Part shown: positions 4,849 through 5,736 of the stretch, in pieces
How the letters are laid out: each line of letters begins with the position of its first letter
Numbering within the stretch: the first letter of the stretch is position 1
From: a virus
Lineage: Duplodnaviria; Heunggongvirae; Uroviricota; Caudoviricetes
IMG/VR virus record: IMGVR_UViG_2698536559_000016
DNA: 5,736 bases
Reading direction: 5' to 3' (one strand)
Position numbers and translations under genes: made by a program
The notes under the pieces: model-generated
The model's database searches: none
What the model saw: the letters and a program-made list of their open reading frames with translations, nothing else
What the model was told of the DNA's origin: nothing

Positions 4849-5118
4849 TTACTTCATCCCGCCAATATTTTCCCACGTCCCGTCAGCACGCAGAATTTGC
4901 AGCGGTCTTACCACGCACTGTATCTGCTTTTTATCCGCATCCAGTATCACCACCTGAGTGATTACCATGGCCTGCTCCGGGATAATACCATTCTCATCTG
5001 ACTCCAGGATGTCTGCCGGCCCCAGTCGCAGTTGTGCTGTAAGTGACTGCCCGTGTTCACGGCCATCATGCTTTCCGCAACCGCACAGACGCTGCATAAG
5101 TTTTTTTAGTATGTTCAT
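4849..5118 (-). CDS. Small phage protein (89 aa), paralogous to the tail-fibre C-terminal domain; possible fibre-tip accessory or assembly protein
   Basis: ATG at 5118..5116 is preceded by SD AGGAG (5129..5125) with a 6-nt spacer. The start lies 1 nt after the fibre gene's TGA (5122..5120), reading AGGAGAATGACATG, which suggests translational coupling. The ORF track's 133-aa version (start 5250) would overlap the fibre gene by 131 nt, so I prefer the internal start. Residues ~28-89 align with the last ~60 residues of the upstream fibre protein (see findings). Confidence 0.55.
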   Translation of the reverse strand: MNILKKLMQRLCGCGKHDGREHGQSLTAQLRLGPADILESDENGIIPEQAMVITQVVILDADKKQIQCVVRPLQILRADGTWENIGGMK

Positions 5119-5119
5119 G

Positions 5120-5736
5120 TCATTCTCCTGTTCTGCCTGTATCACTGCCCACTTCATCCAGCCCCTTAACATCCTGCCACGGCCCGTCACCAAATCTGAC
5201 CTGCAAATGCTGAAACATCCCCTGAACCTGTGTGGCATCTTTGGGGTCAAGAAAGGTCAGTCCGGTGATGAGCGCACCATCTGTATCCGGGAACCAGCCA
5301 TAGCTGTTTGTCTCAATAATGCTCATCGGCCCCAGACGAAAACGGATTTGTGTCTCGCCCGGGTCTCCCTTCGGCCCCTGAGGTCCGGTAGCCCCCACCG
5401 GACCTGCCGCTCCTGTTTCTCCTTTCGGTCCCTGTGGGCCTGCCGGGCCTGCTGCACCGGTATCTCCCTTTGGCCCCTGTGGACCTGTACTTCCCGTCAG
5501 ACCGGTCTCTCCCCGTTCCCCCCTGTCGCCTTTCGGCCCCTGCGGGCCTGCCGGACCTGTATCTCCTCTCGGTCCCCGTTCGCCGGTTGCCCCGACAGGG
5601 CCGGTGTCACCACGCTCTCCCTTATCACCCTTCGGCCCCTGAGGGCCAGCGGGCCCCTGTTCCCCCTTTGGCCCGGGAGGTCCCACCACGGTGGGGATTC
5701 GGTTTACGGCCTCTTCCGCCGCTATCCTGCTTTGTT
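5120..5736 (-). CDS. Collagen-like (Gly-X-Y) repeat protein, probable prophage tail fibre; C-terminal portion only (5' end beyond window)
   Basis: The ORF track starts this ORF at a GTG (5689), but I translated the same frame by hand up to the window edge (…[21 protein letters not shown]…) and found no stop, so the gene continues upstream of 5736. It contains 37 uninterrupted Gly-X-Y triplets followed by a ~75-aa non-collagen C-terminal domain, and ends at TGA (5122..5120). It is GC-rich, unlike the effector genes. Collagen-like prophage tail-fibre proteins are known in pathogenic E. coli; the tail-fibre role is inferred from that and from context. Confidence 0.75.
5125..5129 (-). promoter_or_regulatory. 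Shine-Dalgarno sequence (AGGAG) for the 89-aa ORF, embedded in the last codons of the tail-fibre gene
   Basis: The minus strand reads AGGAG-AATGAC-ATG; the fibre-gene stop codon TGA lies inside the spacer. Confidence 0.55.
5351..5683 (-). repeat. Collagen triple-helix repeat region (37 Gly-X-Y triplets) within the tail-fibre CDS
   Basis: Strict G at every third residue from GPPGPKG to GDPGET. There is higher-order periodicity: [11 protein letters not shown](K/R)GERG(D/E)TG occurs twice and GPQGPKG(D/E) five times. The underlying DNA is correspondingly repetitive (ggcccctg / cctttcggcccctg recurring). Confidence 0.85.

What the first reader, a model, noticed from the sequence alone, without database searches (positions are those of the whole stretch)
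4849..5350. Tail-fibre tip domain duplicated as a stand-alone, translationally coupled downstream ORF
The last ~60 residues of the collagen-like fibre ([57 protein letters not shown]) align by eye with residues ~30-88 of the next ORF (RLGPADILESDENGIIPEQAMVITQVVILDADKKQIQCVVRPLQILRADGTWENI). Shared positions are RLGP, I-E, G, P, IT, LD, K, Q-Q, LQ, DG-W, roughly one third identical with one single-residue gap. The small protein also has a Cys/His-rich N-terminal segment (LCGCGKHDGREH) that the fibre lacks. The stop/start overlap (AGGAGAATGACATG) implies co-expression. This could be an alternative receptor-binding tip, a tip-mimicking chaperone, or a decoy.
Basis: seen in the sequence. Interest (0 to 1): 0.5.

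Follow-up and report, generated by a model that had tools for sequence, protein, structure and literature searches.

The report
Stand-alone copy of tail-fibre tip
The small gene after this prophage's collagen-like tail-fibre gene is a real, old and well-conserved copy of the fibre's tip domain, but the pair is common in lambda-like and Shiga-toxin phages, is already catalogued, and was described in print in 2016; only its function is still open.

Summary
The last ~64 residues of the collagen-like fibre and residues 28-89 of the next ORF align at 34% identity (BLASTP E=1e-10). Both match Pfam PF06820 (Phage_fiber_C, "PfC") at about 1e-34.

The window is the end of a lambdoid EHEC/EPEC prophage, read on the minus strand: EPclA-type side tail fibre, 89-aa PfC-only gene, hairpin terminator, then the T3SS effector genes NleG, an NleL-like E3 ligase and NleC.

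The pair is not new.
- It occurs in about 698 of 5426 complete E. coli genomes, about 10 copies each, and in 296 phage records including 933W, phi24B, 434 and VT1-Sakai.
- The small gene is PHROG 576, and PGAP names it.
- Mondal et al. 2016 described its Sp5 orthologue ORF68 as a non-essential PfC-only ORF.

What I add:
- The small gene is intact in 86/86 loci and under strong purifying selection (dN/dS 0.09, against 0.22 for the fibre tip).
- The duplication predates a divergent lineage in which the tip plus small gene sit on non-collagen shafts.
- Peptides of the phi24B orthologue appear at trace level in a virion proteome.

Best guess, about 40%: a tip-specific assembly or stabilising accessory sitting in the lambda tfa slot. 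Function is untested.

The parts
5348..5683 (-). Collagen-like (Gly-X-Y)n shaft of the EPclA-type side tail fibre. The gene continues upstream beyond the window end at 5736.
   Evidence: Pfam PF01391 Collagen, E=2.1e-19; translation. The full 437-aa gene is seen in the 99.9%-identical locus L001, where PGAP calls it 'prophage tail fiber N-terminal domain-containing protein'. The architecture matches EPclA of Ghosh et al. 2012 (PMC3368898).
5156..5347 (-). PfC domain (Phage_fiber_C) at the C-terminus of the fibre. This is the trimerisation and triple-helix-nucleating knob.
   Evidence: Pfam PF06820, E=1.1e-34, residues 130-193 of the 204-aa translation. PfC was shown experimentally to be a trimerisation module (PMC3368898).
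5123..5155 (-). Short acidic C-terminal tail of the fibre beyond PfC (…[11 protein letters not shown]). It also carries the ribosome-binding site of the next gene.
   Evidence: Translation. The last 13 residues have net charge -3. AGGAG lies at 5129-5125.
5116..5129 (-). Gene junction: AGGAG (5129-5125), fibre stop TGA (5122-5120), one spacer base C (5119), ATG of the small gene (5118-5116).
   Evidence: Sequence. The same 33-nt junction occurs in 82/86 loci, and the 1-nt spacing in 84/86. The two exceptions carry an IS66-family element inserted at the junction.
5038..5118 (-). N-terminal 27 residues of the small protein (MNILKKLMQRLCGCGKHDGREHGQSLT). It is basic, with a predicted short helix at residues 3-11/12 followed by a low-confidence linker.
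   Evidence: AF2 models. Net charge +3. dN/dS 0.30. No Pfam match for this part. It is partly conserved in P0129.
4852..5037 (-). PfC domain of the stand-alone 89-aa protein, the paralogue of the fibre tip.
   Evidence: Pfam PF06820, E=4.9e-34, residues 28-89. PHROG 576 match over the full length, E=8.4e-59. dN/dS 0.087. 34% identical to the fibre PfC.
4849..4851 (-). Stop codon (TAA) of the small gene.
4810..4834 (-). Hairpin followed by a U-run, immediately after the small gene. It is the probable intrinsic terminator closing the late (tail) operon.
   Evidence: RNA fold -26.1 kcal/mol, z=-5.0, 0 of 200 shuffles as stable. It is conserved in the IMG/VR loci and in the divergent lineage. The simple consensus scan did not call it.

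Best explanation
WHAT IT IS (shown, about 0.95). This is the 3' end of the late operon of a lambdoid prophage. The EPclA-type collagen-like side tail fibre ends in a 64-residue PfC knob. The next gene starts one base after the fibre's stop codon, and its Shine-Dalgarno sequence lies inside the fibre's last codons. It encodes an 89-aa protein made of a 27-residue basic N-terminal segment plus a second PfC domain that is 34% identical to the fibre's. A hairpin terminator follows. The small gene is an ancient, separately maintained paralogue of the tip. It is a real expressed gene, not a decaying remnant or a silent cassette.

HOW IT MOST LIKELY WORKS (inferred, about 0.4). The small protein is made from the same late mRNA, next to the emerging fibre C-terminus. 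It uses its PfC fold to associate with fibre PfC domains. It could do this as its own trimer docking on the fibre knob, or as a transient surrogate subunit for nascent chains. Either way it would help the C-terminal knob register and nucleate the triple helix, or keep it soluble.

On this reading it is a tip-specific assembly or stabilising accessory. That makes it a functional analogue, not a homologue, of the Tfa proteins that sit in the same slot after lambda-type stf genes. It helps but is not strictly required, and most of it is not retained in the virion.
For: It is a real, selected gene:
- 86/86 loci carry an intact 89-codon ORF.
- dN/dS is 0.087 for its PfC domain and 0.30 for its N-terminus, at pS of about 0.12. 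The fibre's own PfC domain gives 0.22.
- Two unique peptides of the phi24B orthologue 'gp59' are present in the virion proteome data.

It is co-expressed with the fibre:
- The junction with AGGAG and a 1-nt spacer is conserved.
- No promoter-like site lies between it and position 5400.
- A terminator follows directly after it.

It is obligatorily partnered with PfC tips:
- 296 phage records hold the small ORF and 296 hold the tip.
- 698 versus 697 E. coli genomes, and 6320 versus 6155 places.
- It is found in long-tailed lambdoid phages (434, cdtI, 2B8) and in short-tailed Stx phages (933W L0121/L0122) alike.

It behaves like a cassette, as tip plus chaperone modules do. In a divergent lineage, a PfC tip plus a small ORF (P0129) sit on a non-collagen shaft (L089, L090) and on a gpJ-fused shaft (L091). 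There they again have a Shine-Dalgarno sequence, overlap each other, and are followed by a terminator.

The duplication is old and the two copies keep separate identities. Fibre-fibre identity is 41%, small-small 52%, and cross comparisons 30-34%.

It sits in the same slot as tfa. PhiR42_1, with a lambda-type Stf, has Tfa in that position. The phage 434 annotators called the small ORF a 'tail fiber assembly chaperone'.

It is more conserved than the tip and present at only about 7% of fibre peptide counts in virions (3 versus 38-47 PSMs). Both facts fit a non-structural helper.

PfC is a trimerisation and nucleation domain (PMC3368898).
Against: No experiment links the small protein to fibre assembly.

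Recombinant EPclA, expressed alone, trimerises and forms a triple helix (PMC3368898). Sp5 lacking ORF68 still forms plaques and lysogens on K-12, whereas the fibre ORF67 is essential (PMC5155283). Any helper role is therefore dispensable under laboratory conditions.

The protein has no similarity to Tfa families: Pfam finds only PF06820.

No structural model supports an interaction.

The charge complementarity between the basic N-terminus and the acidic fibre tail is only suggestive.

The 434 'chaperone' label is positional annotation, not evidence.
Confidence: 0.4

Rival explanations
1. Virion-bound distal accessory. A trimer of the small protein docks non-covalently on the fibre's PfC knob, with its basic N-terminus against the fibre's acidic C-tail. 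It then acts as a cap, second knob or adhesin. This would be a split version of tandem tip domains.
For: PfC domains trimerise on their own (PMC3368898). Peptides of the phi24B orthologue are found in gradient-purified virions. The small N-terminus is +3 and the fibre tail is -3. A distant collagen-containing protein (P0148) carries four tandem PfC-half-like repeats in one chain, so stacked PfC-like modules do exist.
Against: Peptide counts are only about 7% of those for fibre-tip peptides, and 6 PSMs against 2267 for the whole fibre. This is far below 1:1. The phi24B authors do not list it among the structural proteins discussed in their text. It is more conserved than the fibre tip, which is the opposite of what is expected for a specificity determinant. 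It is dispensable in Sp5 (PMC5155283).
Confidence: 0.2
2. Soluble decoy or receptor blocker. The free PfC trimers are released at lysis. They occupy the fibre's ligand on debris or on the lysing cell, so that progeny are not trapped.
For: The protein is expressed late with the fibre, is a small soluble trimer-forming domain, is not needed for particle formation, and is mostly not in virions.
Against: The two PfC domains differ at two thirds of their positions, and the variable positions differ between them. A shared ligand is therefore not implied. No ligand of PfC is known. Blocking would also hinder infection of new hosts. There is no direct evidence.
Confidence: 0.08
3. Recombination reservoir (Mondal et al. 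2016). The ORF is mainly a spare tip cassette that can replace the fibre's own PfC to vary specificity.
For: This was proposed in PMC5155283. Two kinds of natural chimera exist. P0067 joins collagen in frame to the small-ORF PfC at GERGP|ADIL, with about 13 nt of imperfect microhomology. P0138 joins the small-ORF N-terminus to the C-half of the fibre PfC.
Against: The paralogous segments share only 53% nucleotide identity, with a longest identical run of 9 nt. That is no substrate for homologous exchange. Among 174 relatives in 5.8 billion proteins, all of the 120 listed are 131 aa or shorter, and only P0067 (4 sequences, contig-end gene) is a fibre-like fusion. None of the 296 phage records shows a fibre carrying the small-type tip in place of its own. 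The start codon, Shine-Dalgarno sequence and N-terminal extension are conserved and the gene is under strong purifying selection. It is translated.
Confidence: 0.06
4. Programmed +1 frameshift at GAA-UGA-C. This would make a minor fibre isoform with a tandem PfC-PfC tip. The small ORF is in the +1 frame, so ...TGE-D-MNILKK... would result.
For: The frames are compatible with a +1 shift at the stop. UGA-C is a weak stop context, and a Shine-Dalgarno-like AGGAG lies just upstream. This superficially resembles prfB; that comparison rests on my own knowledge. The phi24B authors put 'Fusion_6159_FS1/FS2' in their MS database and labelled the row 'Spike or just gp59?'.
Against: The P-site codon GAA cannot re-pair in the +1 frame (AAU). 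The AGGAG abuts the shift site instead of lying 3 nt upstream, as it does in prfB. Mondal et al. found no frameshift signal. The fibre's normal C-terminal peptide [11 protein letters not shown] is abundant at 47 PSMs. No junction peptide (DMNIL, TGED, TGEND) occurs in the stored part of the proteome file. In the divergent lineage the genes overlap by 14 nt with a different geometry.
Confidence: 0.04

Closest known systems
Sp5 ORF68, 933W L0122, VT1-Sakai H0003, phi24B 'gp59' (PHROG 576; NCBI 'phage tail fiber C-terminal domain-containing protein')
   Same: It is the same gene family, at 92-98% protein identity. It has the same 89-aa length, the same position directly after the PfC-tipped collagen-like fibre, and the same junction. 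It was described as a PfC-only ORF and found non-essential in Sp5 (PMC5155283).
   Different: There is nothing substantive. Here it follows an EPclA (long-tailed, one collagen block) fibre rather than the EPclB (short-tailed Stx phage) fibre.
PfC domain of EPclA collagen-like prophage fibres (Ghosh et al. 2012, PMC3368898; Pfam PF06820)
   Same: Both PfC copies in the window belong to this Pfam family. The fibre in the window has the EPclA Col-PfC end.
   Different: The small protein lacks PfN, PCoil and collagen, and adds a 27-residue N-terminal segment. Ghosh et al. do not mention the stand-alone gene: 'downstream' occurs 0 times in the paper.
Tail fibre assembly proteins in the slot after the fibre gene (lambda Tfa, Mu U/U', P2 G)
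   Same: It is the gene immediately after the fibre gene. It is co-transcribed, and it travels with the fibre tip as a cassette across different shafts. In PhiR42_1 the same slot holds Tfa.
   Different: There is no sequence relationship: Pfam finds only PF06820. It is half the size. It is a copy of the tip itself rather than a separate chaperone fold. Published data show it is not required for fibre trimerisation or infectivity in the systems tested.
Split or tandem tip architectures of phage fibres (for example T-even gp37 with a separate gp38 adhesin; tandem knob domains)
   Same: It shares the idea of a separately encoded small protein associated with the distal end of a trimeric fibre. 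P0148 shows PfC-like half-domains in tandem.
   Different: There is no homology. The small protein is only a trace component of phi24B virions and is more conserved than the tip, unlike a specificity-determining adhesin. The comparison with gp38 rests on my own knowledge, not on a test here.

Membership tests
Pfam PF06820 Phage_fiber_C (PfC) | Match to the family HMM above the gathering score (25 bits), covering the domain | tested here: met
   The small ORF scores 117 bits, E=4.9e-34, profile positions 1-64/64. The fibre scores 119 bits, E=1.1e-34, positions 1-64/64.
PHROG 576 (stand-alone 89-aa 'tail fiber protein') | Full-length match to the 89-position profile | tested here: met
   E=8.4e-59, residues 1-89 on profile positions 1-89/89.
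PHROG 576 / Sp5 ORF68-type gene | Located directly downstream of a fibre gene that itself ends in PfC | tested here: met
   Seen in the window. 84/86 loci have the 1-nt spacer and 2 have an IS66 insertion at the junction. Phage records hold 296 versus 296.
EPclA collagen-like prophage fibre (Ghosh 2012) | A single collagen (Gly-X-Y)n block followed by a C-terminal PfC | tested here: met
   Pfam Collagen plus Phage_fiber_C in the visible 204 aa.
EPclA collagen-like prophage fibre (Ghosh 2012) | N-terminal PfN (PF08400) domain and PCoil region | tested here: inconclusive
   These lie outside the window. In the 99.9%-identical locus L001 the gene is 437 aa and PGAP names it 'prophage tail fiber N-terminal domain-containing protein'. 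I did not run Pfam on it.
Tail fibre assembly protein (lambda Tfa / Mu U / P2 G type) | Gene immediately downstream of, and co-transcribed with, the fibre gene | tested here: met
   Tfa occupies the same slot in PhiR42_1.
Tail fibre assembly protein (lambda Tfa / Mu U / P2 G type) | Sequence membership in a Tfa family | tested here: not met
   The Pfam scan at E<=0.1 returns only PF06820. PHROGs returns only 'tail fiber protein' families 576 and 13758.
Tail fibre assembly protein (lambda Tfa / Mu U / P2 G type) | Required for folding or trimerisation of the cognate fibre tip | not testable with these tools
   Published data argue against a strict requirement. rEPclA trimerises when expressed alone (PMC3368898), and Sp5 ORF68 is non-essential (PMC5155283).
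prfB-type programmed +1 frameshift site | P-site codon able to re-pair in the +1 frame, an in-frame stop in a weak context, and a Shine-Dalgarno-like element about 3 nt upstream | tested here: not met
   The sequence is ACA GGA GAA UGA C AUG. UGA-C is present, but GAA cannot re-pair on AAU, and AGGAG abuts and overlaps the GAA codon. The criteria come from my own knowledge of prfB.
Bacterial lipoprotein (lipobox) signal | An n-region, a hydrophobic h-region of at least ~7 residues, and L-[ASTVI]-[GAS]-C | tested here: not met
   In MNILKKLMQRLCGCG the stretch before the Cys is short and contains Q and R. C. rodentium has only MHSLCGC. This was judged by inspection; no predictor was run.

The most novel reading that the evidence does not exclude
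The small PfC protein physically joins the fibre tip, by one of three routes. It could form mixed or stacked PfC assemblies. It could act as a substoichiometric cap. Or a low-frequency +1 shift at GAA-UGA-C could produce a tandem PfC-PfC isoform. In each case a minority of fibres on each virion would carry a different distal knob and recognise a second ligand. That would be a built-in bet-hedging of receptor specificity in Stx and lambdoid phages.
Probability: 0.1. Interest if true: 0.55.

Novelty: already known. Interest (0 to 1): 0.22.

Why it matters
The gene pair sits in about 13% of complete E. coli genomes, at about ten copies each. It is present in most sequenced Stx-converting phages, both long- and short-tailed, and directly upstream of the loci where T3SS effector genes are carried. 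How these fibres are built and what they bind bears on the host range and spread of Shiga-toxin and effector-carrying phages.

The existence of the stand-alone tip copy is already known, so the finding itself adds little. What remains open is its function, and that is a modest question. The analysis here narrows it. The gene is expressed, strongly constrained, older than the collagen-shaft context, more conserved than the tip, and at most a trace virion component. This points to an assembly or accessory role that could be tested with simple genetics and biochemistry.

Tried and rejected
1. Fold assignment failed.
- AF2 monomer models were weak: pLDDT 56 with 9 sequences and 62 with 12 sequences. 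The PfC part reached about 70-80 and the N-terminal residues 1-26 stayed below 50.
- Foldseek against BFVD and the PDB gave nothing at E<=0.001.
- Sequence and profile searches of the PDB found nothing except chance coiled-coil matches to optineurin at E 0.015-0.04.

No multimer or co-fold could therefore be run.

3. A scan of species-representative genomes gave only two short contigs. One is E. albertii. The other is a 725-nt 'Xanthomonas pisi' contig that is probably contamination.

4. The exhaustive HMMER search found only 91 relatives among 1.84 billion representatives. The alignment therefore cannot be made deep.

5. A zinc-knuckle reading of LCGCGKHDGREH was rejected, because the His residues and one Cys are not conserved outside the E. 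coli group.

6. A lipoprotein signal was rejected on inspection.

7. A prfB-like frameshift was rejected on codon and spacing grounds, and for lack of junction peptides.

8. The PGAP 'tail assembly protein' pseudogene fragment, called just downstream of the small ORF in L002 (equivalent to window 4771-4847), translates to nothing recognisable here.

9. L089 has no megablast match in complete E. coli genomes, so its host remains unidentified.
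Full report
CONTEXT. All relevant genes are on the minus strand.
- The window holds the 3' part of a collagen-like fibre gene, which runs off the window at 5736 and has its stop at 5122-5120.
- Next comes an 89-codon ORF (ATG 5118-5116, stop 4851-4849).
- Then a strong hairpin followed by a U-run (4810-4834; -26.1 kcal/mol, z -5.0).
- Then three type III secretion effector genes: an NleG family protein (4049-4639), a 790-aa pentapeptide-repeat/SopA-like HECT E3 ligase (1626-3998), and the zinc protease NleC (380-1372).

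The region is 99.9% identical to a prophage of E. coli 377323_2f. There the order is tape measure, M/L/K/I-type genes, gpJ, a 437-aa fibre ('prophage tail fiber N-terminal domain-containing protein'), a 'phage tail fiber C-terminal domain-containing protein', NleG, the E3 ligase, NleC, and then an EspF-repeat protein and EspJ. This is the usual end of a lambdoid EHEC/EPEC prophage, with effector genes carried downstream of the tail-fibre genes.

THE OBSERVATION. BLASTP of the fibre against the small protein gives 34% identity over 62 residues with two single-residue gaps, E=1e-10. Both proteins match Pfam PF06820 (Phage_fiber_C) end to end at about 1e-34, and the fibre also matches Collagen. 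The duplication is therefore real.

Three details need correcting.
- The genes do not overlap. The order is AGGAG (5129-5125), TGA, one base, ATG.
- The alignment has two gaps, not one.
- The Cys/His stretch is conserved only within the E. coli group.

IT IS ALREADY KNOWN.
- The fibre is the EPclA architecture of Ghosh et al. 2012, PfN-PCoil-Col-PfC. [quoted passage not shown] That paper does not mention the downstream gene.
- Mondal et al. 2016 do mention it. [quoted passage not shown] They list it among the non-essential late genes, whereas the fibre ORF67 is essential. They found no frameshift signal and suggested it might be 'an intragenomic reservoir sequence' (PMC5155283).
- The small protein is PHROG 576, matched over its full length at E=8.4e-59. 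PGAP gives it a product name. The annotators of phage 434 labelled it 'tail fiber assembly chaperone'.

DISTRIBUTION.
- In complete E. coli genomes the small gene occurs in 698 of 5426 genomes (6320 places, median 10 per genome). The fibre tip occurs in 697 genomes (6155 places).
- In the phage collection, 296 records hold the small ORF and 296 hold the fibre tip. These include 933W (L0121/L0122), VT1-Sakai (H0003), 434, 2B8, cdtI and many Stx1/Stx2 phages, both long- and short-tailed.
- Outside E. coli, close relatives are seen in E. albertii and Citrobacter rodentium.
- An exhaustive HMMER scan of 1.84 billion representative proteins finds only 91 relatives, most of them fragments. The family is very narrow.

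IS THE SMALL GENE FUNCTIONAL? I compared 86 loci: 80 IMG/VR contigs plus the window and the other fetched loci.
- Every copy is an intact 89-codon ORF. 84 have the same 1-nt-spacer junction. The other two have an IS66-family element inserted exactly between the two genes.
- Pairwise Nei-Gojobori estimates give dN/dS of 0.087 for the small protein's PfC domain, 0.30 for its N-terminal 27 codons, and 0.22 for the fibre's own PfC, at pS of about 0.12. The small gene is thus under stronger purifying selection than the tip it copies.
- Variable residues cluster at a few positions in each: small protein 19, 23-25, 28, 50, 81; fibre tip positions 10, 11, 18, 23, 42, 46, 48, 66 of the last 77 residues.
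- The supplementary proteome of the 2026 phi24B cryo-EM preprint contains two peptides unique to the orthologue: VITQVVILDADKK and ADGTWENIGGMK, 3 PSMs each. The authors call it gp59. Fibre-tip peptides in the same file have 38-47 PSMs. The authors added hypothetical fusions 'Fusion_6159_FS1/FS2' to their database and labelled the row 'Spike or just gp59?'. Their main text never mentions gp59.

So the protein is made, and it is at most a trace component of purified virions.

AGE AND MODULARITY.
- One distant stand-alone homologue, P0129 (79 aa), lies in an enterobacterial assembly that I could not assign to a species. It sits directly after a fibre C-terminus that has no collagen but does end in PfC, overlapping it by 14 nt. 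It has its own GGAGG, a hairpin terminator after it, and NleG and SopA-like effector genes further on.
- Related IMG/VR contigs show the same tip plus small gene on that shaft (L090). They also show it on a gpJ-fused shaft with a Phage_fiber_2 repeat (L091), where the tip carries an in-frame stop.
- Identities are 41% fibre to fibre, 52% small to small, and 30-34% in all cross comparisons.

The duplication therefore predates the split of these lineages. The two copies have kept distinct identities, and the tip plus small gene move together as a cassette among different shafts. That is how fibre tips and their cognate assembly proteins behave in lambda-, Mu- and P2-type phages (the last point rests on my own knowledge). 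In PhiR42_1, which has a lambda-type Stf, the same slot holds Tfa.

MECHANISM. Shown:
- The small gene is co-transcribed and closely coupled to the fibre gene.
- It is expressed, constrained, and tied to PfC tips.
- It is dispensable in Sp5 on K-12.
- It is not needed for trimerisation of recombinant EPclA.
- It is substoichiometric in virions.

Inferred: the most economical reading is a tip-specific helper. It would use its own PfC fold to engage the fibre's C-terminal knob during or just after synthesis, aiding registration and nucleation or solubility, and would mostly be left behind. I put this at about 0.4.

Rivals:
- A virion-bound cap or second knob, about 0.2. It is supported by the presence of peptides in virions, by charge complementarity (N-terminus +3, fibre tail -3), and by tandem PfC-like repeats in P0148. 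It is weakened by the low abundance and by the protein's higher conservation.
- A soluble decoy, about 0.08.
- The recombination reservoir, about 0.06. Rare chimeras P0067 and P0138 exist. However, the paralogues share only 53% nucleotide identity with no identical run longer than 9 nt, and fibres carrying the small-type tip are essentially absent.
- A +1 frameshift fusion, about 0.04. The frames fit and the stop is UGA-C. However, GAA cannot re-pair in the +1 frame, the AGGAG is wrongly spaced, the normal fibre C-terminal peptide is abundant, and no junction peptide is in the stored data.

STRUCTURE. Both AF2 monomer models predict a short N-terminal helix (residues 3-11/12), a low-confidence linker, and a small all-beta domain. 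This agrees with the CD data of Ghosh et al. Confidence is low (pLDDT 56 and 62). No fold search returned a meaningful match, and no solved structure exists for the family. A multimer model could not be run.

VERDICT. Novelty: already known. The open point is what the small protein does. Interest 0.22.

Noticed in passing
window 380-4639 (- strand): Three T3SS effector genes lie directly downstream of the tail-fibre module: NleG family (4049-4639), a 790-aa pentapeptide-repeat + SopA-like HECT E3 ligase (NleL-like, 1626-3998), and NleC (380-1372). A sigma-70-like site at 4692-4665 lies upstream of NleG. This is a typical effector-carrying locus at a lambdoid prophage end.
   Followed up: partly
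L086 (phage 434, OL657227.1 16652-23011): The classical lambdoid phage 434 carries the same EPclA fibre and small PfC gene. An NleB-like pseudogene and an NleC-like T3SS effector gene follow them.
   Followed up: no
L073 348-2963 and L048: An IS66-family element (three ORFs including a 523-aa transposase) is inserted exactly between the fibre stop and the small ORF's ATG. The small ORF is still intact.
   Followed up: partly
L003 4-291 (protein P0067): This is a natural in-frame fusion of the fibre's collagen region to the small-ORF PfC (…GATGERGP|ADILESD…). It arose by a ~540-nt deletion at an imperfect ~13-nt microhomology. The contig begins at the gene, so the N-terminus is unknown. It is seen in 2 samples.
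   Followed up: partly
protein P0138 (92 aa; no locus fetched): This is a chimera with the small ORF's N-terminus and first PfC strand joined to the C-half of the fibre-type PfC, including the fibre's acidic tail. It could be a recombinant or an assembly artefact.
   Followed up: no
protein P0148 (565 aa; no locus fetched): A collagen-repeat protein from an unrelated source carries four tandem ~78-aa repeats. Their second half resembles the second half of PfC: …VVVLDAD…GILQVRRADGTWxEIPALKG (E=5e-13, 4 stretches). This hints that PfC belongs to a wider class of small beta modules in fibre proteins.
   Followed up: no
L089 110-974; L090; L091 991-4243: A divergent PfC tip plus small ORF cassette sits on a non-collagen shaft bearing a W…Y…G carbohydrate-binding-like motif. 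It also sits on a gpJ-Phage_fiber_2 fusion whose PfC has an in-frame stop. NleG and SopA-like genes are again downstream. The host species is not identified, and there is no match in complete E. coli genomes.
   Followed up: partly
L005 (NZ_JPLE01000138.1, 725 nt, labelled Xanthomonas pisi): A 725-nt contig in a Xanthomonas assembly encodes the small ORF at 92% identity to the E. coli gene. It is most likely contamination of that assembly.
   Followed up: no
window 4771-4847 (equivalent to L002 3132-3208): In a related genome PGAP calls a 77-nt frameshifted 'tail assembly protein' pseudogene fragment here. It overlaps the terminator hairpin. Nothing recognisable translates from it in the window.
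   Followed up: partly
bioRxiv 10.64898/2026.04.10.717836, supplementary proteome: The phi24B authors searched for hypothetical gp61-gp59 frameshift fusions and flagged the result 'Spike or just gp59?'. They do not discuss it in the text.
   Followed up: yes
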